A stretch of 64,000 nucleotides of DNA, taken from the sequence record PZ445427.1. One strand, given 5' to 3'. Both the position numbers and the translations under genes were made by a program. Numbering within the stretch: position 1 is the first letter of the stretch; the number at the start of each line of letters is the position of its first letter. Source of the stretch: a phage. Positions 7,737 to 48,322 of the stretch are shown here, in pieces. Under the pieces are notes generated by a model, which was not told the origin of the DNA, ran no database searches, and saw only the letters and a program-made list of their open reading frames with translations.

Positions 7737-8511
7737 TATTATTTTTCTCCAATAGTTCTTTAATCGACAGGATTTCTATCCCATTCGTTTCGGCTTTCTT
7801 ATAAGATGAGGAAGAACGTTTTGATTCATCCTCACAGATTAGGTATTTGACGTCTTTGGTAACGGACTTCTTGACCGTATATCCTAGACTTTCTAAATAG
7901 TTTGTTGCATCCGTTCGATTTGCAAAGTCTTGCAAAGATCCGGTAATACAGACCGTGATTCCATTTGGCTGGGCAACTAAATCATCTGTAATGATGATAT
8001 CAGCTTTAGCACCTCGAATACCAGTTGAGAATTTCCACGGTAGTTCAATAACATCCTTGCCTTGTGGGGAATTTAGCCAGGTTTTGTAATTTTCTCCAGC
8101 CTTGCCGTCAGCCTTCACATCGTGGAAGCTAGTGCAATTTTGGGACAGTTTCTTTGCTGCAACCTCTCCAATAAGAGGAATTCCTAAAGAACCGAGAACT
8201 GAACCAAAGTCAATGTCTCCGCGAACCTTAGTATTTAACTCGCTAATCAACTTAGCGGCAACCTTGCTACCCACAGCTCCTACCAAATCTTCTTCGGTCA
8301 GGTAAAACAGTTCTGAGATCTTAGTCAGCTCCAGCTTCTCAATAGTTTTCGGGCCAAAGCCCTTTAACTTCATTTTTGTGCAGAAGTTCTCGATTAACTT
8401 ACTTGATTGCGCTGGACAGTTGGACTTATTCCTACAGAATAATTGCCCGTTGACAAGATCTAGCTTAGAACCACAAGAGGGACATTGTGTTGGAATTTCG
8501 ATTTTCATCAA
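7729..8511 (-). CDS. NAD-dependent DNA ligase, C-terminal part (Zn finger, HhH, BRCT-like)
   Basis: 260 aa; Cys4 cluster CPSCGSK...CRNKSNC; HhH-like LKGFGPKTIEKL; separate ORF from the adenylation domain. Confidence 0.75.
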   Translation of the reverse strand: MMKIEIPTQCPSCGSKLDLVNGQLFCRNKSNCPAQSSKLIENFCTKMKLKGFGPKTIEKLELTKISELFYLTEEDLVGAVGSKVAAKLISELNTKVRGDIDFGSVLGSLGIPLIGEVAAKKLSQNCTSFHDVKADGKAGENYKTWLNSPQGKDVIELPWKFSTGIRGAKADIIITDDLVAQPNGITVCITGSLQDFANRTDATNYLESLGYTVKKSVTKDVKYLICEDESKRSSSSYKKAETNGIEILSIKELLEKNNNV

Positions 8512-33629: not shown

Positions 33630-34482
33630 ATAAATTAGAGAACAGCGAGCCGATTACGCTGAGTGAGTTTAGTGATTCCTACTAGGATAGCTATTCCACT
33701 GAATAGAGTCGGTGAGTTGGAGACTAGTAAGTACTCTGAGAGAGGCTACGAGCTAACGCTTATTGCTATTGATAGGGAACTGAAAATCTGCGGAAAACTC
33801 GGGAGCTGTCCCGAAATCTCGTAAACTCTTCTCTAGTTTATGTTAGTGGGGTGTCGAACTGACTTATGTGATAACACTGCCGTCCTAGTATAAACGGTAA
33901 TATCAAACCGTAACTGGTGGAAGATGCAGGTTCGAATCCTGCGGTCGGAAAGAATCAGATAACTCGGGCTTATACCGGATAAGCATTCGCTGCTGGAGTA
34001 CATACTATGACGGTTCAGGAGGTACGCCACCTGATCAGTATTAGGTTAGAATCGAAACAGCTAAACCACGAGGAAACCTGACGGCCTCAACCAAACTCGG
34101 AACTCGGGATCACTGCCTAGTGTGTGCCCCGTTTAACCTGAGACTAGGCATCCAGCTTCGCATCGAAAATCGGAGGTGCGATTCTAACAGACCGCGTGAA
34201 TATGAGAGTGGGAAACGCTGACATGAGAGATGTCACTAATGGTGCCCAATAGTACAGGTAATTCGCGATAATTCCTGTTGAGCGGCAGCAGTAGGCTGGG
34301 AGTCATGACCTAAGCCTAACCGAGTTCTTCACATACGGAGAACATAACCACAAAGTCACCCTGACTTAAACTGGAAGATATTGTCTGACGGAAGGGCTGC
34401 AGAGCTTAATCTGAGGGGGCTGACCCTACCTACCGTCGGGTATCTTTAAGAGCTTTTATAAGAGTTCTTAAAAATACCTAAA
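33630..34482 (+). ncRNA. candidate large structured non-coding RNA (about 850 nt), class unknown
   Basis: no plus-strand ORF >=60 aa; balanced composition unlike AT-rich spacers; hairpins (e.g. GCCTAGT...ACTAGGC); three AACTCGGG repeats; internal partial tRNA copy. Confidence 0.45.
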
Positions 34483-42263: not shown

Positions 42264-42272
42264 ATTTCTGCA

Positions 42273-42348
42273 TTCCTAGAGTGTTACTGGACAGCATGTC
42301 GGTCTCCAAAACCGTACGGTCTAGGTTCGAGTCCTAGTAGGTTTGCCA
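42273..42348 (+). other. tRNA-like element with Trp-type anticodon arm (CCA); possible degenerate tRNA
   Basis: anticodon arm CGGT-CTCCAAA-ACCG and T-arm CTAGG-TTCGAGT-CCTAG are canonical, but acceptor pairing is only 5/7. Confidence 0.35.
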
Positions 42349-42448: not shown

Positions 42449-42829
42449 ATGGAAACAAAAACGTGTAATAAGTGTGGAAATACATTTCCCTTGAGTACGG
42501 ACTACTTCTTTAAAAGTGGTAAGCAAGTCTCAGGAAAACAAAAATGGAAACCTATGTGCAAACAATGCGAAAGTATATCTCGTATTGAATACTATAATAA
42601 TACAATTGCCGAGGTTTTTCCTGACTTACATTGTGCTATTTGTGGGTATAACAAGTGTCCACAGGCGATTGATTTCCATCATTTAGAGCAGGATGATAAA
42701 GAGTTTAATATTAGTGAAGCTAGACGGGGTACGTTTAACAAAGAAAAACTAATAGAAGAGCTTGAGAAATGTGTACCTTTATGCTGTAGGTGTCACAGAG
42801 AATATCATGCTGGAGTTATTGAGCTTTAA
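42449..42829 (+). CDS. HNH homing endonuclease
   Basis: HNH motif DFHHLEQDDKEFN...CCRCHREYH with Zn-binding Cys pairs; start placed after upstream tRNA. Confidence 0.75.
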   Translation: METKTCNKCGNTFPLSTDYFFKSGKQVSGKQKWKPMCKQCESISRIEYYNNTIAEVFPDLHCAICGYNKCPQAIDFHHLEQDDKEFNISEARRGTFNKEKLIEELEKCVPLCCRCHREYHAGVIEL

Positions 42830-42843
42830 ACTGAAAAATGTAG

Positions 42844-42872
42844 TTGCTTAAATCCTTAAAGTTCTGTATAAT
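42844..42872 (+). promoter_or_regulatory. promoter cassette (TTGCTT-N17-TATAAT)
   Basis: upstream of 42901 gene. Confidence 0.6.
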
Positions 42873-42900
42873 TATTATATAAATTGAACTGGAGAACTAG

Positions 42901-43089
42901 ATGAAAGCACCTAAACCGAAATTAGTTAAGTTCGACTGCTGTGACACTGAAATCTTATTTACTAAGTTTGGTGAATTTAAGATGTGTGAATGTGGAACAT
43001 GTGGTTATGATCATGGTGATGGATATTATTGCAGAACCCTCGGGCCTTCTGAACTAATCCACTTCTCATGGCCGGAAAGTAAAGAATAA
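42901..43089 (+). CDS. small Cys-rich protein (62 aa)
   Basis: CC...CEC..C...C pattern. Confidence 0.45.
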   Translation: MKAPKPKLVKFDCCDTEILFTKFGEFKMCECGTCGYDHGDGYYCRTLGPSELIHFSWPESKE

Positions 43090-43091
43090 TA

Positions 43092-43167
43092 CGACCGTTG
43101 GCTGAATGGCTTAGGCGGAGGCCTGCAAAACCTCCTTATGTGAGTTCGAATCTCATGCGGTCGTCCA
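43092..43167 (+). tRNA. tRNA-Cys (anticodon GCA)
   Basis: acceptor CGACCGT/GCGGTCG; anticodon loop CTGCAAA (stem GAGGC/ACCTC with one mismatch); T-arm GTGAG-TTCGAAT-CTCAT; CCA encoded. Confidence 0.6.
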
Positions 43168-43174
43168 AATTTTA

Positions 43175-43257
43175 GGGTCGTTAGCCAAGCGGTTTGGCGG
43201 TGGACTGTTAATCCATGTCGAAAGACAACGTAGGTTCGAATCCTACACGGCCCGCCA
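43175..43257 (+). tRNA. tRNA, anticodon GUU (Asn-type) with unusually long variable arm
   Basis: acceptor GGGTCGT/ACGGCCC; anticodon stem GTGGA/TCCAT loop CTGTTAA; 13-nt variable hairpin; T-arm GTAGG-TTCGAAT-CCTAC; CCA encoded. Confidence 0.55.
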
Positions 43258-43360
43258 TATTCTGTGTAGAGTTAAGTAAACCGGTAGCCAACCAGCTATC
43301 ATTGCTGATATCGAATTCAGTCACAGATACCATTTTTCATTAACAACTGAGGAAATAGAT

Positions 43361-43546
43361 ATGACAACTCGTGCAATTGCTCGACTAGAAGCTGATCGTG
43401 ATAGTCTGATTAATAATATTAAGGTTTGGGATCAAGAAATTGAAAACCAAAAACTGACATTAATTCAAGATATGCAACAACAGAATGCCCGTCGTGAAGC
43501 TCTAAAAGAGGTTGAGGAAGCTATCGAAAAACTCAAAACTGAGTAA
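43361..43546 (+). CDS. hypothetical coiled-coil protein (61 aa)
   Basis: ORF with SD GAGGAAATAG. Confidence 0.45.
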   Translation: MTTRAIARLEADRDSLINNIKVWDQEIENQKLTLIQDMQQQNARREALKEVEEAIEKLKTE

Positions 43547-43554
43547 ATAAATTA

Positions 43555-43632
43555 TGCGATCGGGGCTGGCTTGGTAATGGTACTCCCCTGTCACGGGAGA
43601 GAATGTGGGTTCGAATCCCATCGGTCGCGCCA
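43555..43632 (+). tRNA. tRNA-Asp (anticodon GUC)
   Basis: acceptor GCGATCC/CGGTCGC (6/7); anticodon stem CTCCC/GGGAG loop CTGTCAC; T-arm GTGGG-TTCGAAT-CCCAT; CCA encoded. Confidence 0.65.
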
Positions 43633-43638
43633 AATAAT

Positions 43639-43714
43639 ACATCCATAGCTCAATGGTTAGAGCTACCGCCTCTTAAGCGGAGGGTTCTAGGTTCAAGTCC
43701 TAGTGGGTGTACCA
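43639..43714 (+). tRNA. tRNA-Lys (anticodon CUU)
   Basis: acceptor ACATCCA/TGGGTGT; D-stem GCTC/GAGC; anticodon loop CTCTTAA; T-arm CTAGG-TTCAAGT-CCTAG; CCA encoded. Confidence 0.65.
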
Positions 43715-43794
43715 AACATCAGAGCAGCGTGATGTACTGCAAAGACCCAAAGTCCGGGGTGGACTTCTTGATTCAAAGGAGCAGGCATTAATTA

Positions 43795-43905
43795 TCATTC
43801 TAGCGTGGTGGAGAGGGGACACCAGCTTGCCGAGGGTAGAAGCTCGTTCGATTCGAGTGAAAGAATGGTTCTCGTAAATCCGCACAAGTGATAGTAGGTT
43901 CAAGT
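43795..43905 (+). other. unresolved tRNA-like structured segment
   Basis: contains T-arm-like GCTCG-TTCGATT-CGAGT and GTAGG-TTCAAGT-CCTAC but no acceptor pairing at tRNA spacing. Confidence 0.3.
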
Positions 43906-43927
43906 CCTACCTAGATTGACTCATTAT

Positions 43928-44001
43928 GCGTTCGTAGTTAAAAGGTATAATTTTTGGTTGCCAACCAGAAGTTGAGGGTTCGATTCCCTCCGACCGCACC
44001 A
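43928..44001 (+). tRNA. tRNA-Gly (anticodon GCC)
   Basis: acceptor GCGTTCG/CGACCGC (6/7); D-stem GTTA/TAAT; anticodon stem TTTGG/CCAGA loop TTGCCAA; T-arm GAGGG-TTCGATT-CCCTC; CCA encoded. Confidence 0.65.
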
Positions 44002-44249
44002 AATTTAGGTTTCTGCTTCCTAGAGAACTGACTCCTAGATAAACAAGGCGATGAGTTTCCGGCCGGTTCTAGTCGCTGAAAATCCTCCCGACCAGGTAGG
44101 TGTAAGTAAACGAAAGTTTACTTATTAAGTAAGTCCGACACATCGGCGGGTGTGTTCTAGTACTTAAAGAAGGTCTCGCAAACTTTCTCGCTAGCATGAG
44201 TTGATAGCTCGGTGACTTACCTAATAAGTAAATTTATTAAAAAATGTAG

Positions 44250-44278
44250 TTGCTATTTAGCTTAATTCTCTGTATAAT
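44250..44278 (+). promoter_or_regulatory. promoter cassette driving tRNA-Pro/CAU operon
   Basis: TTGCTA-N17-TATAAT. Confidence 0.6.
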
Positions 44279-44310
44279 ATATTTTATAAAGTGAGTTAAC
44301 AAAGAATATT

Positions 44311-44388
44311 CTCCGTGTAGCTCAGTTTGGCCAGAGCGTTTCGTTTGGGGCGATAGGGTCGGGGGTTCAAATCCTCCCACGGAGACCA
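44311..44388 (+). tRNA. tRNA-Pro (anticodon UGG)
   Basis: perfect acceptor CTCCGTG/CACGGAG; D-stem GCTC/GAGC; anticodon loop TTTGGGG; T-arm GGGGG-TTCAAAT-CCTCC; CCA encoded. Confidence 0.7.
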
Positions 44389-44394
44389 AACAAT

Positions 44395-44472
44395 TGCGGG
44401 TTAGATCTCTGGTAGAGATCGCTAGTCTCATAAGCTAGAAAGAGGTAGGTTCGATTCCTACACCCGCTTCCA
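44395..44472 (+). tRNA. tRNA with anticodon CAU (second copy; Met/fMet/Ile2 type)
   Basis: acceptor TGCGGGT/ACCCGCT (1:72 mismatch, as in initiator tRNAs); D-stem GATC/GATC; anticodon stem CTAGT/GCTAG loop CTCATAA; CCA encoded. Confidence 0.65.
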
Positions 44473-44493
44473 ATTTAATAGAAGGATTTCGAA

Positions 44494-44658
44494 ATGAAAT
44501 TATTTCGTTTAAAAGTAAGTGATCTACGTTCTAGCAAAGATCGTAAGAAGTATCCACTAGCCCATTACGGTAAAGATGAAAATGAAGTGATGGCGGAATT
44601 TGGTATTAATCATCCTTACTTGAAAGTTCACTCTATTAAAGAAGTATACATGTATTAA
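44494..44658 (+). CDS. hypothetical small protein (54 aa)
   Basis: ATG after AAGGATTTCGAA; below 60-aa threshold of ORF track. Confidence 0.35.
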   Translation: MKLFRLKVSDLRSSKDRKKYPLAHYGKDENEVMAEFGINHPYLKVHSIKEVYMY

Positions 44659-44660
44659 AT

Positions 44661-44738
44661 TGACCGTTAACTCAACTGGATAAGAGTACCGAGCTTTTAC
44701 CTCGTAGGTTCTGGGTTCGAATCCCAGACGGTCAACCA
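44661..44738 (+). tRNA. tRNA-Lys (anticodon UUU)
   Basis: perfect acceptor TGACCGT/ACGGTCA; D-stem ACTC/GAGT; anticodon loop CTTTTAC; T-arm CTGGG-TTCGAAT-CCCAG; CCA encoded. Confidence 0.65.
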
Positions 44739-44755
44739 ATTTAAAGGAATTTGTT

Positions 44756-45073
44756 ATGAATATTAACAAAGTTCTAGGAACAATATCAGAAATGTCTGGT
44801 AGAGCTGGAAAACGCTTTACTGAATTATGTATTAAAAATCAAAAAGTACCAGAACATCAATGTCATTATTGTCGAGACTGTGAACAATACCATGAAATGT
44901 GTGTGGTTGAAGATTGGGTCTGGGATCAGATAAGAAAAGAACAATCCAAAGATATTGTTCTATGTTTTACTTGTATGGAACGACGTTTAGGACGTAAAAT
45001 TACTCTTAAAGATCTTAAACATGTTCCCTGTAACGCTCCTTACTTCATTGGTTTTAGAATGGAGAGATTTTGA
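44756..45073 (+). CDS. Cys-rich protein (105 aa)
   Basis: CHYCRDC and CFTC clusters (Zn-binding likely). Confidence 0.5.
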   Translation: MNINKVLGTISEMSGRAGKRFTELCIKNQKVPEHQCHYCRDCEQYHEMCVVEDWVWDQIRKEQSKDIVLCFTCMERRLGRKITLKDLKHVPCNAPYFIGFRMERF

Positions 45074-45206
45074 TGATAATCTGGTTTTACTTAATGAAAC
45101 AAAAAGTCAAGCAGTACAACGTATTTTCTGCTGATTTTACTATTGGAATGTTCTTAGCGGGATTATGTGAGTTTCTGTTTGAAGCCTACATCATAGGAAG
45201 TCTTTT

Positions 45207-45280
45207 GCTCGGTTAGTTTAATGGGAGAACCCCGTCTTTACACGGCGGTTGCGATAGTTCGATTCTATCACCGAGTACCA
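45207..45280 (+). tRNA. tRNA-Val (anticodon UAC)
   Basis: acceptor GCTCGGT/ACCGAGT; anticodon stem CCGTC/GGCGG loop TTTACAC; T-arm GATAG-TTCGATT-CTATC; CCA encoded. Confidence 0.65.
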
Positions 45281-45299
45281 ATTAACTCAAAATAAGGAA

Positions 45300-45659
45300 T
45301 TGCAAATGCAATTATCAAGCAAGGTTCAAGGCTATTTCGGGCATGTAACAATGGAGTTCGCTATCTCTAAAGGTTGGGACTTCGAACAAGATCTAGCTGA
45401 ATTCTACAAAGATATTGATCTGAATGTACCGTACATAGGACTCTCTACTGGTCAAGAGATCACAGAAGGCGATGTGTTCAAGGCAAGTCAAGGTGAGGTA
45501 ACACCTAGTTTTGCCGAGTTCTGGTTAGGTATTACTTTGAAAGAAGATGCACCGGATGGTGGTGTGGTTATGCAGAGTATGCACTCTGGAAGCTCTGACT
45601 ACCTTTTCGTTAGTGACGTTAAGGAAATACAAGAAATCTGCAAAAATGTACTTGCTTGA
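45300..45659 (+). CDS. hypothetical protein (119 aa)
   Basis: ORF. Confidence 0.5.
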   Translation: MQMQLSSKVQGYFGHVTMEFAISKGWDFEQDLAEFYKDIDLNVPYIGLSTGQEITEGDVFKASQGEVTPSFAEFWLGITLKEDAPDGGVVMQSMHSGSSDYLFVSDVKEIQEICKNVLA

Positions 45660-45680
45660 TGCTTAATTTCTTGTTATAAT
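45652..45680 (+). promoter_or_regulatory. promoter cassette followed by about 245-nt leader
   Basis: TTGCTT-N17-TATAAT; next ATG only at 45924. Confidence 0.55.
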
Positions 45681-45923
45681 ATTTATATAAATTGATGGGG
45701 AGAAATCCTCATCAAAGTTCACTAAGGTATTAGCTCGACCTAGGACTGGCTGCCAAAAAGCACGATCCCTACGACTTGGGAGAAGTTCTAGATTAGTCCA
45801 CTAGATTCAGTGGCAACTGAATAGTGTATCGGGTTTGTGAAGAGCGGTTATCCTCTACTGGCTAATGTCTGAGGGTAATACGCACACCGAGCTAATAGCC
45901 TTAGTAAACTAGAAGGAATATCT

Positions 45924-46187
45924 ATGTTTGATCTTAAAGATATGGCTAAGAAACTAATGTCGCAACGTTATCAACAAAGAACCCTCCATAAACGAGTTTC
46001 CGATATGAAGAAACGTTGCAATAATGCTAAGTATTATAATAGTCTTAATAAACTATCTGATGTAGATCTTGCTAAAACTGAAGCAATATATAATCACTTA
46101 GTAGTAGAATCTGATATAGTGAATAAAGATATTGCTAGGCTAGAAGCTCAGATTGTAGCAACTGTTCTCGATATGTATAGAGAATAA
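45924..46187 (+). CDS. hypothetical protein (87 aa)
   Basis: ORF with SD AGAAGGAATATC. Confidence 0.5.
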   Translation: MFDLKDMAKKLMSQRYQQRTLHKRVSDMKKRCNNAKYYNSLNKLSDVDLAKTEAIYNHLVVESDIVNKDIARLEAQIVATVLDMYRE

Positions 46188-46196
46188 ATAAATTTT

Positions 46197-46275
46197 GGGG
46201 AATGGGTCTGCATGGAGTGGACACCTCGCTTGCACCGAGGACATCAGAACGGTTCGATTCCGTTATTCTCCACCA
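46197..46275 (+). tRNA. tRNA-Ala (anticodon UGC), copy 1
   Basis: acceptor GGGGAAT/ATTCTCC with G3-U70; anticodon stem CCTCG/CGAGG loop CTTGCAC; T-arm AACGG-TTCGATT-CCGTT; CCA encoded. Confidence 0.55.
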
Positions 46276-46281
46276 AAATTC

Positions 46282-46357
46282 GGGGTCATAGGTTATTTGG
46301 TTAAACTTACTGCCTTGCAAGCAGTGGAACTCAGTTCAATTCTGAGTGACTCCACCA
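46282..46357 (+). tRNA. tRNA-Ala (anticodon UGC), copy 2
   Basis: acceptor GGGGTCA/TGACTCC with G3-U70; anticodon stem ACTGC/GCAGT loop CTTGCAA; T-arm CTCAG-TTCAATT-CTGAG; CCA encoded. Confidence 0.7.
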
Positions 46358-46376
46358 AACAAATTAAGGAAATAAT

Positions 46377-46595
46377 ATGGTATTCTTAGCAGCCTCTGTA
46401 GTTCTTGCAGCTTTAGCACTAGCTATCTATTTTAGAACTATTAAAGATTTAGCTAAAGAAAAGAAAACTTTCTTTACTGATTATTCTTGGGGCGCTCCAT
46501 ATACCGTCCGCTTTATCAGCTTAGAAGCTATGCTGATAATGGTATTCAGTGGTATAGGTTCCGTTGTTACAGGGTTACTATTTATTTCTAACTAA
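46377..46595 (+). CDS. small membrane protein (72 aa)
   Basis: two hydrophobic helices. Confidence 0.5.
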   Translation: MVFLAASVVLAALALAIYFRTIKDLAKEKKTFFTDYSWGAPYTVRFISLEAMLIMVFSGIGSVVTGLLFISN

Positions 46596-46602
46596 ATAAA
46601 AT

Positions 46603-46683
46603 GGGGATGTGGCGAAATTGGCAGACGCGCTAGATTTAGGCTCTAGTCTTCGGGTGTGGGTTCGAGTCCCTCCATCCCTACCA
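46603..46683 (+). tRNA. tRNA-Leu (anticodon UAG), class II
   Basis: acceptor GGGGATG/CATCCCT; Leu-type D-arm GGCGAAATTGGCAGACGCGC; anticodon stem CTAGA/TCTAG loop TTTAGGC; CCA encoded. Confidence 0.65.
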
Positions 46684-46857
46684 AACATTGGATTAACTCA
46701 TGATGAAAACTCCTATAACTGATATCTGGTTAGCTGTTAATACATTAACTAAAGAGTATGTGTTTATAGAGTATGGTCAGAGGTATGACCAAAAGATGTA
46801 TAATCTCATACTTCCAGTATCCGCTAATGAAGTTTATGATTTAATCCTGAGATCTAC

Positions 46858-46948
46858 GGAAGAGCAAATCGATTAGGTGACGAAAACCGCTTGGAAAGTG
46901 GCTGACTGGTAAAACGGCTTGAGAGTTCGAATCTCTCTTCTTCCGCCA
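46858..46948 (+). tRNA. tRNA-Ser (anticodon GGA), class II
   Basis: acceptor GGAAGAG/TTCTTCC; anticodon loop TTGGAAA; long variable arm; T-arm GAGAG-TTCGAAT-CTCTC; CCA encoded. Confidence 0.55.
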
Positions 46949-46970
46949 AACAACTTACTAGGAAACTAAT

Positions 46971-47327
46971 ATGTCAGAAGTGACAATCTATAATGAAATG
47001 CTTGGCAAAATTTTTACTAGTGTATGCCAAGACCAAGATACTCTTATCTTCATTTGTACTGATGGTAAGAACTATAAGTTTTATCATGAGCAGGACTGCT
47101 GTGAAGATGTTCATATAGATGATATTATTGGTGATTTACATGACCTTTTAGGTTATCCAATCATAGAAGCAGAGGAAGTAATCACACACGCTACAGAAGA
47201 TTGGGATTCAGTAACCCATACATGGTATAAGTTTGCCACAGCTAAAGGCTGTGTAACCGTTAAATGGCATGGTTCTAGTAATGGTTATTACTCTGAATCT
47301 GTAAACTTTGTAATATACGAACAATAG
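46971..47327 (+). CDS. hypothetical protein (118 aa)
   Basis: ORF; stop overlaps start of next tRNA by 2 nt. Confidence 0.5.
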   Translation: MSEVTIYNEMLGKIFTSVCQDQDTLIFICTDGKNYKFYHEQDCCEDVHIDDIIGDLHDLLGYPIIEAEEVITHATEDWDSVTHTWYKFATAKGCVTVKWHGSSNGYYSESVNFVIYEQ

Positions 47328-47415
47328 AAGATAGGACGTAGTGGTACGTAACCGGTCTTGAAAACCGGCCCGCTGTAGTGATATGGTGATGGTTCGACTC
47401 CATTATCTTCTGCCA
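47326..47415 (+). tRNA. tRNA-Ser (anticodon UGA), class II
   Basis: perfect acceptor AGAAGAT/ATCTTCT; anticodon stem CCGGT/ACCGG loop CTTGAAA; long variable arm; T-arm GATGG-TTCGACT-CCATT; CCA encoded. Confidence 0.7.
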
Positions 47416-47560
47416 AATCTTGAAGTATGCCGGAATCGGTAGACGGGGCTTCCTAAAGGGCGTAAGGGGAACATCCACTCCTCATAAGATACCCGAAAAC
47501 GAGGCTGAGATAAATGGTCTATCTCGTGAAGGTTCAAGTCCTTCTGCTTCTTGATATTCA
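47416..47560 (+). other. unresolved tRNA-like structured segment
   Basis: Leu-type D-arm-like CCGGAATCGGTAGACGGGG and T-arm GAAGG-TTCAAGT-CCTTC, but no acceptor or anticodon arm at tRNA spacing. Confidence 0.3.
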
Positions 47561-47773
47561 ATGGCTCAAAGAGTAACGGTGCACCTTTCTAGAGAATTTC
47601 CTGGGCGAGAATCCAGGTGTAATCAACTAGTTGTTAGTGTGATGAGTTTCGGAGAGCCGCCACAATTGAAAATTCGTACTCGTCTTGAGCTTCGTGCAAT
47701 AGAAGATAACTTGATTAGTATTCTAGAAAATGCTATTTGAGGATGGTTTCGCTAACCCTGCGAGTTTTCAATT

Positions 47774-47850
47774 GTGGCTATATCATAATTGGTTAATGAT
47801 CCTGATTGTGAATCAGGCCTATGTGGATTCGAGTTCCACTAGCCACCCCA
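47774..47850 (+). tRNA. tRNA-His (anticodon GUG)
   Basis: perfect acceptor GTGGCTA/TAGCCAC; D-stem TCAT/ATGA; anticodon stem CCTGA/TCAGG loop TTGTGAA; CCA encoded. Confidence 0.75.
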
Positions 47851-47856
47851 AATATT

Positions 47857-47931
47857 GCGTCCTTATTTCAACGGAAAGAATGTAAAGCTACGAACTTTAC
47901 GATCGGGGTTCGATTCCCTGAGGATGCACCA
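47857..47931 (+). tRNA. tRNA-Arg (anticodon ACG)
   Basis: acceptor GCGTCCT/AGGATGC; anticodon stem GTAAAG/CTTTAC loop CTACGAA; T-arm CGGGG-TTCGATT-CCCTG; CCA encoded. Confidence 0.65.
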
Positions 47932-47954
47932 ATTAACTTAAACAGGAAAATAAT

Positions 47955-48156
47955 AATGGCTGATTTCTGTAAAGAATGCTCTATCGATATGTGGGGCAAA
48001 GATACACAAGATCTTTCTGGTCTTATCACTGAAGCCGAGGTTAAAGAGGGCTACGGTGCTGTAGTAATCTGCGAAGGTTGTGGTATTATCCGTGTTGATC
48101 ATGAAGGCAAACGCCTTGAAGAACCTGAGCCAATCGCAACGGTTCCTGTAGAGTAA
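47955..48156 (+). CDS. small Cys-rich protein (67 aa)
   Basis: start placed after tRNAs (ORF 47821 otherwise overlaps two tRNAs); CxxC...CxxC. Confidence 0.45.
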
Positions 48157-48164
48157 AGAATTAT

Positions 48165-48240
48165 TGGGATGTAGATCAATTGGCAGATCGTCGGCCTCTG
48201 ACTCCGAAGGTTCCACGTTCGATCCGTGGCATCCCAGCCA
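48165..48240 (+). tRNA. tRNA-Gln (anticodon CUG)
   Basis: perfect acceptor TGGGATG/CATCCCA with U1-A72 and G73 (Gln-like); D-stem GATC/GATC; anticodon loop CTCTGAC; CCA encoded. Confidence 0.7.
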
Positions 48241-48246
48241 AACAAT

Positions 48247-48322
48247 TGGAGAGTAGTGTAACGGTTAGCACAACGGCCTTTGACTCCGTTAATGGTAGGT
48301 TCGATTCCTCCTTCTCCAGCCA
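48247..48322 (+). tRNA. tRNA-Gln (anticodon UUG)
   Basis: acceptor TGGAGAG/TTCTCCA, G73; anticodon loop CTTTGAC; T-loop TTCGATT; CCA encoded. Confidence 0.65.

What the first reader, a model, noticed from the sequence alone, without database searches (positions are those of the whole stretch)
43715..47560. tRNA-like segments that do not fold as tRNAs
Seen in sequence: 42273-42348 (Trp-type anticodon arm, poor acceptor), 43795-43905 (two T-arm-like hairpins, no acceptor at tRNA spacing), 47416-47560 (Leu-type D-arm-like segment plus T-arm with about 90 nt between them) and 44002-44240 (240 nt ORF-free) look like tRNA fragments or other structured RNAs. Inference: tRNA pseudogenes, small stable RNAs, or processing and recombination scars.
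Basis: partly seen in the sequence, partly recalled or inferred. Interest (0 to 1): 0.4.

Follow-up and report, generated by a model that had tools for sequence, protein, structure and literature searches.

The report
Phage T5-type tRNA-like stable RNAs
The odd "almost-tRNA" stretches are real, conserved genes for small non-coding RNAs that phage T5 and its relatives are already annotated as carrying (RNA1, RNA2, RNA IV), built like tRNAs whose anticodon loop has been replaced by a conserved extra domain, and whose function is still unknown.

Summary
The window is a T5-like phage (Epseptimavirus, about 95% identical to Stitch/Seabear) with a 29-30 gene tRNA array. The flagged segments are not scars. 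They are orthologues of RNAs annotated in the T5 and phage 5 GenBank records:
- 43796-43918 = RNA2 ("tRNA-like RNA with unknown functions")
- 47418-47554 = RNA1 (same label)
- 44113-44235 = RNA IV ("stable RNA") with its precursor stem, followed by the P13a-type promoter at 44250-44278

None matches any Rfam family. 42272-42348 is a called tRNA-Trp with two U·U mismatches in its acceptor stem.

Covariation supports tRNA-derived folds. RNA2 has 92.8% of cells paired and 22 of 32 pairs compensatory. RNA1 has 99.6% paired and 14 of 36 compensatory. Register-shifted controls give 34-49%. Both keep the acceptor stem, D-arm and T-arm. In place of the anticodon loop they carry a conserved 48-55 nt structured insertion, so they cannot decode. 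RNA1 derives from tRNA-Leu. RNA2 also occurs in Klebsiella and Serratia T5-likes and in T4-like Acinetobacter phages.

Most likely they are stable RNAs processed by the tRNA machinery, with the tRNA body as scaffold and the insertion as effector. The partner is unknown, and the genes are dispensable in lab hosts. The feature is already known; its function is an old open question.

The parts
43796..43918 (+). RNA2 orthologue, a tRNA-like RNA. Acceptor 43796-43803 / 43911-43918. D-arm 43806-43824. H1 (anticodon-stem analogue) 43825-43829 / 43885-43889. H2 43831-43834 / 43871-43874. Inner T-loop hairpin 43842-43858. Invariant single strand GAAAGAATGGTT 43859-43870. Conserved bulge TAAATCCGCA 43875-43884. 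T-arm 43894-43910. No CCA encoded.
   Evidence: 88% identical to T5 'rna2'. Covariation: 92.8% of cells paired and 22 of 32 pairs compensatory, against 34-41% paired in register-shifted controls. Covariance model R1 scores it 139.5 bits. Coordinates.
47418..47554 (+). RNA1 orthologue, a tRNA-Leu-derived tRNA-like RNA. Outer pairs 47418-19 / 47553-54. Acceptor 47422-47427 / 47545-47550. Leu-type D-arm 47430-47446. Extended anticodon-arm analogue: H1 47447-52 / 47501-06, H1b 47458-60 / 47492-94, apical hairpin 47466-47483 with invariant loop ACATCCAC. Variable-arm hairpin 47507-47525 with loop AATGGTC. T-arm 47528-47544. No CCA encoded.
   Evidence: 82% identical to T5 'rna1' and annotated as RNA1 in AJ604531. 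Covariation: 99.6% paired and 14 of 36 pairs compensatory, against 40-49% in shifted controls. Model R2 scores it 169.8 bits; the next best hits are tRNA-Leu genes at 26-36 bits.
44113..44235 (+). RNA IV orthologue with its precursor stem. Invariant 13-bp outer stem 44114-44126 / 44223-44235. Inferred mature RNA about 44127-44222: closing stem GTAAGT / ACTTAC plus three internal hairpins.
   Evidence: Matches 'rnaIV: RNAIV' of AY692264 and AJ604531. The consensus fold has 49 pairs, 9 of them with compensatory changes, mostly contributed by the window's divergent copy. MFE z-score for 44002-44240 is -2.6.
44002..44112 (+). Spacer module of unknown role between tRNA-Gly and RNA IV. It has an invariant core hairpin (GGCGAT..AGTCGCT, 44047-44077) flanked by variable hairpins. 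It is absent from T5 itself.
   Evidence: Present in Stitch/Seabear-type and phage 5-type genomes and absent in T5. The core is invariant and shows no covariation, so the structure is not proven.
44250..44278 (+). Sigma-70 promoter TTGCTA-17-TATAAT, the homologue of T5 promoter P13a. It starts the next tRNA transcription unit (tRNA-Pro and onward).
   Evidence: Best promoter match in 42800-48300, 10 of 12. It aligns with the feature annotated 'promoter P13a' in T5 and phage 5.
43715..43795 (+). 81-nt module between tRNA-Lys(CTT) and RNA2. It is a separate unit from RNA2 and its role is unknown.
   Evidence: 96-97.5% identical in Klebsiella T5-like phages, where it sits before tRNA-Phe and without RNA2 next to it. 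Predicted structure is weak, z = -0.4.
42272..42348 (+). tRNA-Trp(CCA) gene with a weak acceptor stem (U·U at pairs 2-71 and 3-70). CCA is encoded.
   Evidence: ARAGORN. Rfam tRNA 36.3 bits against a gathering score of 29. Sequence.

Best explanation
The flagged segments are genes for small non-coding RNAs of the T5-family set: RNA2 (43796-43918), RNA IV with its precursor stem (44113-44235) and RNA1 (47418-47554).

RNA1 and RNA2 are tRNA-derived. They keep the acceptor stem, D-arm and T-arm. Those are the parts that RNase P, the 3' trimming nucleases, the CCA-adding enzyme and the T-loop modification enzymes recognise. Where a 7-nt anticodon loop should be, they carry a conserved structured insertion on top of the anticodon stem. 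In RNA1 it is 48 nt: an irregular rod ending in the invariant loop ACAUCCAC. In RNA2 it is 55 nt: a second T-loop hairpin, the invariant GAAAGAAUGGUU strand and a UAAAUCCGCA bulge. Because of this they cannot read codons.

Proposed mechanism:
1. They are transcribed with the neighbouring tRNAs as long early transcripts. No strong terminators lie between them, and the P13a-type promoter follows RNA IV.
2. The host tRNA-processing machinery cuts them out. RNA IV is released from a long double-stranded stem, most likely by RNase III.
3. The tRNA body serves as a processing and stability scaffold.
4. The insertion is the working part and binds a partner that is still unknown.

What is shown: orthology, conservation, the secondary structures, the tRNA-Leu origin of RNA1, absence of coding potential, and no match in Rfam. 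What is inferred: the processing route, stability in this phage, the scaffold-plus-effector division of labour, and the existence of a partner. Confidence is about 0.9 that these are the T5 RNA1/RNA2/RNA IV genes and encode structured RNAs, and about 0.5 for the scaffold-plus-effector mechanism.
For: Identity of the phage:
- The 4.3-kb region is about 95% identical to Epseptimavirus phages Stitch and Seabear.

Orthology to annotated RNAs:
- AJ604531 annotates the RNA1 homologue as 'RNA1, tRNA-like RNA with unknown functions'.
- AY692264 and AY543070 annotate 'rna2' and 'RNAIV' at the homologous sites.
- BLAST of the T5 features onto the window gives 43796-43920, 47419-47562 and 44134-44185.

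Conservation:
- 491, 502 and 445 phage records match the three segments.

Structure:
- RNA2: 92.8% of cells paired, 22 of 32 pairs compensatory, 0 of 500 shuffles as high, shifted controls 34-41%.
- RNA1: 99.6% paired, 14 of 36 compensatory, shifted controls 40-49%.
- RNA IV: 49 pairs, 9 compensatory.

tRNA body plus insertion:
- The RNA2 model scores ordinary tRNAs at 15-35 bits end to end with the insertion skipped, and true members at 79-148 bits.
- The RNA1 model's best non-self hits are the phage tRNA-Leu genes. H1 aligns to their anticodon stem, and 45 model positions sit opposite the middle of the tRNA's anticodon loop.

The insertion is the conserved part:
- All invariant columns of the 21-sequence RNA2 alignment lie between the H1 strands or in the T-arm.
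- Acceptor and D-arm sequences are completely replaced in the Klebsiella, Serratia and metagenomic T4-like copies while still pairing.

Not coding:
- Overlapping ORFs are 59/22/10 aa, 44/25/10 aa and 57/24/26 aa in different phages.

Not tied to one neighbour:
- RNA2 is followed by tRNA-Gly, RNA IV, a tRNA-Met-like gene, tRNA-Pro or an ORF in different genomes.

Not a described family:
- No Rfam match.
Against: - No expression, end-mapping or stability data exist for this phage. For RNA1 and RNA2 the GenBank label says only 'tRNA-like', whereas RNA I, III, IV and 2H are labelled 'stable RNA', so even in T5 they may never have been observed as RNA.
- Neither RNA1 nor RNA2 encodes CCA, unlike the window's true tRNAs whose 3' ends were read, which end in an encoded CCA. 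Position 1-72 of RNA1 is a U·U mismatch. Efficient RNase P and CCA processing is therefore assumed, not shown.
- In the Acinetobacter T4-like copies the acceptor and D-arm module is degenerate. This weakens the idea that a tRNA body is always needed.
- No target was found. The conserved loops have only chance-level (8-10 nt) complements in the window.
- The genes are dispensable in the laboratory. Viable T5 deletion mutants reported in PMC11464382 together span all of these genes, by my mapping of coordinates.
Confidence: 0.6

Rival explanations
1. They are cis-acting processing punctuation. On this view the tRNA-like folds, like mitochondrial or plant 't-elements', exist only so that RNase P and RNase Z/E cut the long tRNA-plus-ORF transcripts at the right places. 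The excised pieces would be by-products with no function in trans.
For: The elements lie inside polycistronic tRNA/ORF units with no strong terminators. RNA1 directly abuts tRNA-Ser on one side and RNA I on the other. The tRNA-like body is the minimal substrate of the processing enzymes (own knowledge). The genes are dispensable in the lab.
Against: The most conserved parts are the insertion loops (ACAUCCAC, AAUGGUC, GAAAGAAUGGUU, UAAAUCCGCA), which processing does not need. The acceptor and D-arm sequences drift freely. RNA2 keeps its core next to quite different neighbours, and in T4-like phages it appears as a solitary element before an ORF. True tRNAs already supply processing sites every few hundred bases.
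Confidence: 0.15
2. They are decaying tRNA pseudogenes or recombination scars left by shuffling of the tRNA array, with no function.
For: The array is clearly recombinogenic. The window lacks a 110-nt tRNA-like element present in Seabear, and the junction falls in the repeated tRNA 3' end CACCAAAT. Modules such as 43715-43795 and 44002-44112 come and go between genomes. RNA1 is visibly tRNA-Leu-derived.
Against: All helices are maintained by compensatory substitutions. The elements are conserved in about 500 genomes, across genera and across two phage families. Invariant single-stranded motifs are not expected of neutral sequence.
Confidence: 0.04
3. They are intron-containing tRNA genes, with the insertion in the anticodon loop spliced out to give a functional tRNA (tRNA-Leu for RNA1).
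For: The insertion sits on top of the anticodon stem. In RNA1 the residues that follow the 5' strand (CUAAA) resemble a tRNA-Leu(UAA) loop remnant.
Against: There is no group I intron match in Rfam, and the 48-55 nt insertions are much shorter than the group I introns known to interrupt bacterial tRNA genes (intron size from own knowledge). The would-be U33 is G in T5 (CGAAUA), and the remnant is not conserved. The insertion is more conserved than the tRNA body, the opposite of an intron. CCA is not encoded, although the true tRNAs read here encode it.
Confidence: 0.03
4. The segments encode small proteins: ORFs 43707-43877, 47420-47554 and 47561-47740.
For: ORFs of 44-59 aa overlap them in the window. 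Several GenBank records annotate 'hypothetical protein' there.
Against: The ORFs are cut to 10-26 aa in T5, phage 5, phiR2-01, Klebsiella and other relatives by frameshifting indels and stops, although the DNA is conserved. The substitutions follow base-pairing rules. Seabear's own annotators wrote 'not a real gene?'.
Confidence: 0.02

Closest known systems
Bacteriophage T5 / phage 5 'RNA1', 'RNA2' (tRNA-like RNAs) and 'RNA IV' (stable RNA), as annotated in GenBank AY692264, AY543070 and AJ604531
   Same: Orthologous sequence (82-89% identity) at the same places in the tRNA region, with the same flanking features: the tRNA-Ser ... RNA1-RNA I-RNA III-tRNA-His run, and RNA IV followed by promoter P13a.
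   Different: The window's RNA IV is a divergent allele that keeps its helices through compensatory changes. The window has tRNA-Gly and a 110-nt module between RNA2 and RNA IV, which abut in T5. It has no ORF between tRNA-Ser and RNA1. The function is unknown in T5 as well.
Bacteriophage T4 RNA C (species 1) and RNA D (species 2)
   Same: Small RNAs encoded at the end of a phage tRNA cluster, with function still unknown (PMC3014915, PMC9697503). RNA C folds with an acceptor-like stem interrupted by U·U pairs, a long extra arm, a variable-arm-like hairpin and a canonical T-arm (MFE z = -4.6). That is the same overall design as RNA1.
   Different: No detectable sequence or profile homology. The RNA2 model gives RNA C only 20 bits, the level of an ordinary tRNA, and the RNA1 model gives no hit at E<=1. 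RNA D shows no tRNA-like fold. This is a functional and architectural analogue, not a family member.
Canonical tRNA (Rfam RF00005), especially class II tRNA-Leu
   Same: Acceptor stem, D-arm with GG, T-arm GGTTCRAnTCC and, in RNA1, a variable-arm hairpin. RNA1's D-arm (CCG-GAAUCGGUAGA-CGG) aligns with that of the phage tRNA-Leu.
   Different: No 7-nt anticodon loop, no anticodon, no encoded CCA, and length 123-137 nt. Not detected by ARAGORN or by Rfam even at E<=10.
Engineered 'tRNA scaffolds' for expressing recombinant RNAs, and natural tRNA-like processed RNAs such as mascRNA and t-elements (own knowledge)
   Same: A foreign structured RNA is grafted onto the anticodon stem of a tRNA body, so that cellular tRNA enzymes process and stabilise it.
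   Different: Those are artificial or eukaryotic/organellar. Here the design is natural and phage-encoded, and its cargo is unknown. Processing has not been demonstrated.
tmRNA and bacterial Y-RNA-like YrlA
   Same: RNAs with a tRNA-like module joined to a long extra domain.
   Different: ARAGORN finds no tmRNA in the window. No Rfam tmRNA or YrlA match reaches anything beyond a 17-nt T-arm fragment. No tag reading frame was identified.

Membership tests
T5-family RNA1 / RNA2 / RNA IV (GenBank-annotated) | Sequence homology to the annotated T5 / phage 5 features | tested here: met
   RNA2 88% over 125 nt, RNA1 82% over 145 nt, RNA IV 81% over 53 nt plus a full-length structural alignment. BLAST hits land on features named rna1, rna2 and rnaIV.
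T5-family RNA1 / RNA2 / RNA IV (GenBank-annotated) | Same position in the tRNA region (synteny) | tested here: met
   tRNA-Ser(TGA), RNA1, RNA I, RNA III, tRNA-His in order; RNA2 ... RNA IV, promoter P13a, tRNA-Pro, tRNA-fMet.
T5-family RNA1 / RNA2 / RNA IV (GenBank-annotated) | Accumulates as a discrete stable RNA in infected cells | not testable with these tools
   There are no transcript data. The GenBank notes say 'stable RNA' for RNA IV but only 'tRNA-like RNA' for RNA1 and RNA2.
Canonical tRNA (RF00005) | Acceptor stem, D-arm and T-arm | tested here: met
   Present and covarying in RNA1 and RNA2.
Canonical tRNA (RF00005) | 5-bp anticodon stem closed by a 7-nt loop with U33 and an anticodon | tested here: not met
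   The stem analogue (H1) encloses 48 nt in RNA1 and 55 nt in RNA2. The U33-equivalent is not conserved.
Canonical tRNA (RF00005) | Detected by tRNA finders, or reaches the Rfam gathering score of 29 bits | tested here: not met
   No ARAGORN call. No RF00005 hit even at E<=10 on the short stretches.
T4 RNA C / RNA D | Sequence or profile homology to T4 rnaC or rnaD | tested here: not met
   R1 gives 20.2 bits on rnaC, the same as generic tRNAs. R2 gives no hit at E<=1. The MAFFT alignment shows no convincing identity.
T4 RNA C / RNA D | tRNA-cluster-encoded small RNA with a tRNA-like acceptor and T-arm plus extra arms | tested here: met
   rnaC fold compared with the RNA1 fold. This is resemblance of design only.
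Group I intron-containing tRNA gene | Group I intron core within the anticodon loop | tested here: not met
   No Intron_gpI hit. The insertions are only 48-55 nt.
tmRNA | tRNA-Ala-like domain plus a tag reading frame, detected by ARAGORN or Rfam | tested here: not met
   ARAGORN reports no tmRNA. The only Rfam hit is a 17-nt T-arm fragment to tmRNA_permuted at E=7.
YrlA / bacterial Y RNA | Match to the Rfam YrlA / Y RNA models | tested here: not met
   No such hit at E<=10. Association with an Rsr/Ro gene was not examined.

The most novel reading that the evidence does not exclude
RNA1 and RNA2 are natural 'tRNA-scaffolded' effector RNAs that phages use against tRNA-directed host functions. 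The tRNA body would give them access to tRNA-binding proteins, for example anticodon nucleases, CCA-end-modifying toxins of abortive-infection systems, RNase P, synthetases or EF-Tu. The conserved insertion would either block such a protein, acting as a decoy or sponge, or dock another tRNA. The invariant AAUGGU motif shared by both RNAs is complementary to a tRNA 3' ACCA end, and RNA2 carries a second T-loop 'elbow'. The presence of the RNA2 core in both T5-like and T4-like phages of different hosts would then reflect horizontal spread of an anti-defence RNA module.
Probability: 0.15. Interest if true: 0.8.

Novelty: already known. Interest (0 to 1): 0.4.

Why it matters
Phage tRNA clusters have recently been recast as counter-defence arsenals; T5 tRNA-Lys against PARIS is one example (PMC11464382). 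The non-tRNA RNAs embedded in those clusters (T4 RNA C/D, T5 RNA1-3, I, III, IV, 2H) remain without a known function, as the T4 reviews and the GenBank notes state. They are missing from Rfam, and automated annotation either ignores them or mislabels them as hypothetical proteins or spurious tRNAs.

This analysis supplies several things for experiments:
- covariation-backed secondary structures for RNA1, RNA2 and RNA IV
- evidence that the conserved, and presumably functional, part is the domain replacing the anticodon loop
- the derivation of RNA1 from tRNA-Leu
- the extension of the RNA2 family to Klebsiella and Serratia T5-likes and to T4-like Acinetobacter phages

These give concrete handles: loop mutants, pull-downs, and complementation of existing T5 deletion mutants on defence libraries. 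For the genome scan itself the verdict is that this is an ordinary, already annotated feature of T5-like genomes.

Tried and rejected
- **Rfam.** Searched at gathering score and at E<=10, on 10 kb and on the short stretches. Only the true tRNAs and chance-level hits came up.
- **Single-sequence MFE folding of RNA1 and RNA2.** Not distinguishable from shuffles (z = -0.4 and -0.95). Single-sequence thermodynamics would have wrongly dismissed them; only the comparative analysis is decisive.
- **The 'tRNA-Arg(ccg)' reading of the 5' 70 nt of RNA2**, as annotated in phage KKP_3711. Rejected because the 5' strand covaries with the 3'-terminal strand (43911-43918), not with the internal GAAAGAATG.
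- **First structure string for RNA2.** It was off by one column and gave 47% pairing, with the -1 shift scoring better. Corrected.
- **Homology of RNA1 or RNA2 to T4 rnaC/rnaD.** Not detectable.
- **Bacterial chromosomal copies of the RNA2 core.** Eighteen exact 20-mer pattern hits in 596 Gb. That is about the number I estimate by chance, and the six contexts examined lack any T-arm.
- **Antisense targets of the conserved loops within the window.** Only 8-10 nt matches, at chance level.
- **Gene-neighbourhood clues in T4-like phages.** An RF-1-domain ORF lies downstream in W16 and a YqeY-domain ORF upstream in a metagenomic contig. These are not shared between genomes, so I treat them as coincidence.
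- **Literature searches for the T5 RNAs.** No open-access description was found. Only the GenBank annotation and statements that T4 RNA C/D are of unknown function turned up.
- **A remembered resemblance of the RNA2 insertion to the 23S GTPase-associated centre.** Not pursued. The UAGAAGC part is not conserved in the Klebsiella or Acinetobacter copies.

Full report
**What the window is.** ARAGORN finds 29 tRNA genes on the + strand between 34.4 and 49.4 kb, and Rfam confirms them. The 4.3-kb stretch around the finding is about 95% identical to Salmonella phages Stitch and Seabear and matches 576 phage records, nearly all T5-like (Demerecviridae, Epseptimavirus/Tequintavirus). The finding therefore sits in the tRNA region of a T5-like phage.

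**Checking the observation.**
- None of the three main segments is called by ARAGORN.
- None matches any of the 4227 Rfam families, even at E<=10 with the permissive filters used for short inputs.
- 42272-42348, in contrast, is called tRNA-Trp(CCA) by both programs (36.3 bits). Its acceptor stem has two U·U mismatches, so 'poor acceptor' is accurate, but it is a tRNA gene.

**What the segments are.** BLAST of each segment against the phage collection finds 502, 491 and 445 records. Most records annotate nothing, or a 'hypothetical protein'. Three records carry detailed hand annotation of the tRNA region:
- AJ604531 (phage 5) labels the homologue of 47416-47560 'RNA1, tRNA-like RNA with unknown functions'.
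- AY692264 and AY543070 (T5) label the homologue of 43796-43920 'rna2'.
- The same T5 records label the homologue of the second half of 44002-44240 'RNAIV', followed by 'promoter P13a'.

Mapping all the T5 features onto the window gives:

| T5 feature | Window coordinates |
|---|---|
| RNA3 | 43260-43332 |
| RNA2 | 43796-43918 |
| RNA IV | 44127-44222, inside a stem formed by 44114-44126 and 44223-44235 |
| P13a-like promoter | 44250-44278, the best sigma-70 match in the region |
| RNA 2H | 45728-45900 |
| RNA1 | 47418-47554 |
| RNA I | 47563-47662 |
| RNA III | 47667-47772, abutting tRNA-His |

**Are they structured RNAs rather than conserved spacer or ORFs?** Single-sequence folding is uninformative for RNA1 and RNA2 (z = -0.4 and -0.95). 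Comparative analysis is decisive.

*RNA2.* I aligned 21 distinct sequences with MAFFT, blind to structure. They came from Epseptimavirus, Tequintavirus, Yersinia phiR2-01, Klebsiella Sugarlandvirus, Serratia Slocum, three T4-like Acinetobacter phages and a 164-kb metagenomic T4-like contig. I then counted pairs for this model:
- an 8-bp acceptor stem
- a 5-bp D-arm
- a 5-bp H1 helix in the anticodon-stem position
- a 4-bp H2 helix
- an inner T-loop hairpin
- the T-arm

The result was 92.8% of cells paired and 22 of 32 pairs with changes on both sides. No shuffle out of 500 reached this, and all six register shifts gave 34-41% paired. The acceptor (7 of 8 pairs), D-arm (4 of 5) and H1 (5 of 5) are the best supported. 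H2 is weak (1 of 4).

*RNA1.* With 21 distinct sequences, the model comprises:
- the acceptor stem
- a Leu-type D-arm
- a long irregular arm made of H1, H1b and an apical hairpin with the invariant loop ACAUCCAC
- a variable-arm hairpin with the loop AAUGGUC
- the T-arm

It gives 99.6% paired and 14 of 36 pairs compensatory, with shifts at 40-49%.

*RNA IV.* It folds into a closing stem with three hairpins inside an invariant 13-bp outer stem. The window's divergent allele supplies most of the 9 compensatory pairs.

*Coding potential.* The ORFs that overlap these RNAs are not conserved: 59/22/10 aa over RNA I, 44/25/10 aa over RNA1, and 57/24/26 aa over RNA2 in different phages.

**Anatomy.** Covariance models built from these alignments make the design explicit.
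- The RNA2 model scores true members at 79-148 bits. It scores ordinary tRNAs at 15-35 bits across the whole model with the insertion skipped.
- The RNA1 model scores members at 137-170 bits. Its next six hits are the phage tRNA-Leu genes (26-36 bits). H1 aligns to the tRNA-Leu anticodon stem, 45 model positions sit opposite the middle of the anticodon loop, and the AAUGGUC hairpin aligns to the variable arm.

So RNA1 is a tRNA-Leu derivative, and both RNAs are tRNA bodies whose anticodon loop is replaced by a structured domain of 48 nt (RNA1) or 55 nt (RNA2).

The conserved part is that domain. In the RNA2 alignment every invariant column lies between the H1 strands or in the T-arm. The acceptor and D-arm sequences are entirely different in the Klebsiella, Serratia and metagenomic T4-like copies, yet they still pair. 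In the Acinetobacter phages the acceptor/D module is degenerate, but the core is intact.

Neither RNA encodes CCA. The true tRNAs read here do, and so do RNA I and RNA3.

**How it most likely works.** Established enzymology, from my own knowledge, says that the acceptor/T-arm stack with a D/T elbow is what RNase P, the 3' trimming exonucleases, the CCA-adding enzyme and TrmA/TruB recognise. The region has no convincing terminators, and its one strong promoter is downstream of RNA IV.

From this I infer the following:
1. RNA1 and RNA2 are co-transcribed with the tRNAs.
2. The tRNA machinery excises and stabilises them.
3. The tRNA body is a scaffold and the insertion is the effector.
4. RNA IV is released from its long duplex, most likely by RNase III.

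This design is the same as that of laboratory 'tRNA scaffolds' and is close to that of T4 RNA C. RNA C folds with an interrupted acceptor, a long extra arm, a variable-arm-like hairpin and a T-arm. It is not detectably homologous, however.

The partner of the insertion is unknown. I found no target within the window, no chromosomal homologue and no consistent neighbouring gene. One lead is that the motif AAUGGU is invariant in both RNAs. It is complementary to a tRNA 3' ACCA end, but this is untested.

Viable T5 deletion mutants (Δ30661-38625 and Δ29191-32442, PMC11464382) together cover all these genes in T5 coordinates. The RNAs are therefore accessory in laboratory hosts, as the tRNAs themselves are.

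**Rivals.**
- *Pure processing punctuation* is the strongest rival. It does not explain the invariant insertion loops, or why RNA2 persists next to unrelated neighbours.
- *Pseudogenes or scars* are contradicted by the covariation and by conservation across families. The array is clearly recombinogenic, though: Seabear has an extra tRNA-like element that is missing from the window at a CACCAAAT junction.
- *Intron-containing tRNAs* are contradicted by the absence of a group I core, the non-conserved U33 position and the insertion being better conserved than the body.
- *Small proteins* are contradicted.

**Comparison with what is known, and novelty.** The elements are orthologues of features already annotated in T5-family GenBank records, so as genomic features they are already known. 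Three things may not have been described in accessible literature: covariation-supported structures, the tRNA-Leu origin of RNA1, and the presence of the RNA2 core in Klebsiella and Serratia T5-likes and in T4-like Acinetobacter phages. I found nothing on these, and none of these RNAs is in Rfam 15. Their function remains an open question alongside that of T4 RNA C/D (PMC3014915, PMC9697503).

**Verdict.** A real, conserved, already annotated class of phage small RNAs. Interest is moderate (0.4) because the function is unknown and now more testable.

Noticed in passing
window 46858-46948: A probable 30th tRNA, tRNA-Ser(GGA), that ARAGORN misses in the window. It is identical to the gene ARAGORN calls and Seabear annotates, except for one extra T in the D-loop. 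It is orthologous to T5 tRNAS2. Rfam gives only a 22.5-bit tRNA-Sec hit here.
   Followed up: yes
window 47563-47662 and 47667-47772: Orthologues of T5 'RNA I' (GGCTC...GAGCC+GCCA, with CCA encoded; the middle diverges and has a 7-nt indel against T5) and 'RNA III' (96% identical; long terminal stem; abuts tRNA-His). They lie under the 59-aa ORF 47561-47740, which shrinks to 22 aa in T5 and 10 aa in a Klebsiella phage.
   Followed up: partly
window 45728-45900: Orthologue of T5 'RNA 2H' (172-nt stable RNA), closed by a 10-bp terminal stem TATTAGCTCG / CGAGCTAATA. Its 3' domain is a different allele from T5's, and Seabear has a 22-nt insertion in the 5' domain.
   Followed up: partly
window 43260-43332: Orthologue of phage 5 'RNA3', a 73-nt tRNA-like RNA ending in ACCA. 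It has a 6-bp 'anticodon' stem and a 6-nt loop CAACCA. ARAGORN and Rfam do not call it. One relative (L133) shows compensatory changes in that stem.
   Followed up: partly
L001 (Seabear) 1078-1179, compared with window 43998-44005: Seabear has an extra, roughly 100-nt tRNA-like element ending in CCA between tRNA-Gly and the 44002-type module. ARAGORN does not call it, and model R1 gives it 20 bits. The window lacks it, and the junction falls in the repeated tRNA 3' end CACCAAAT, which suggests deletion by recombination between tRNA 3' ends.
   Followed up: partly
L148 (Acinetobacter phage vB_AbaSt_W16) 2457-2580; L128 3708-3831: In T4-like phages the RNA2-type element stands alone rather than in a tRNA cluster. 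In W16 it is about 15-25 nt upstream of a 76-aa RF-1-domain (GGQ-type) ORF (Pfam E = 3e-10). In a 164-kb metagenomic contig it lies downstream of a YqeY-domain ORF. The neighbours differ, so no functional link is claimed.
   Followed up: partly
L128 8967-9097 and 9118-9232: Two long (131 and 115 nt) tRNA-like hits of model R1 (22.7 and 17.1 bits) in a T4-like metagenomic contig stretch where ARAGORN finds no tRNA at all. These may be further tRNA-like RNAs of the RNA C type.
   Followed up: no
L150 (Enterobacter phage KKP_3711) 384-453: The public annotation 'tRNA-Arg(ccg)' covers the 5' 70 nt of the RNA2 homologue. It is a spurious call that uses the inner T-loop hairpin as the T-arm. Covariation supports the outer acceptor and T-arm instead.
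   Followed up: yes
window 43715-43795: An 81-nt module 96-97.5% identical to sequence in Klebsiella Sugarlandvirus phages, where it precedes tRNA-Phe and is not next to RNA2. T5 has a diverged version with a 32-nt insertion. Its role is unknown and its predicted structure is weak.
   Followed up: partly
L147 (Serratia phage Slocum) about 7885-7960: An unannotated, degenerate tRNA-Phe-like sequence ending in GCACCA lies immediately upstream of the RNA2 homologue. Both are overlapped by a minus-strand 'hypothetical novel protein' CDS (7942-8121) that is probably not real.
   Followed up: no
window 33879-33950: A borderline Rfam tRNA hit (29.3 bits against a gathering score of 29) that ARAGORN does not call, about 530 nt upstream of tRNA-Arg(TCT). 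Model R1 also scores it at tRNA level (18.6 bits).
   Followed up: no
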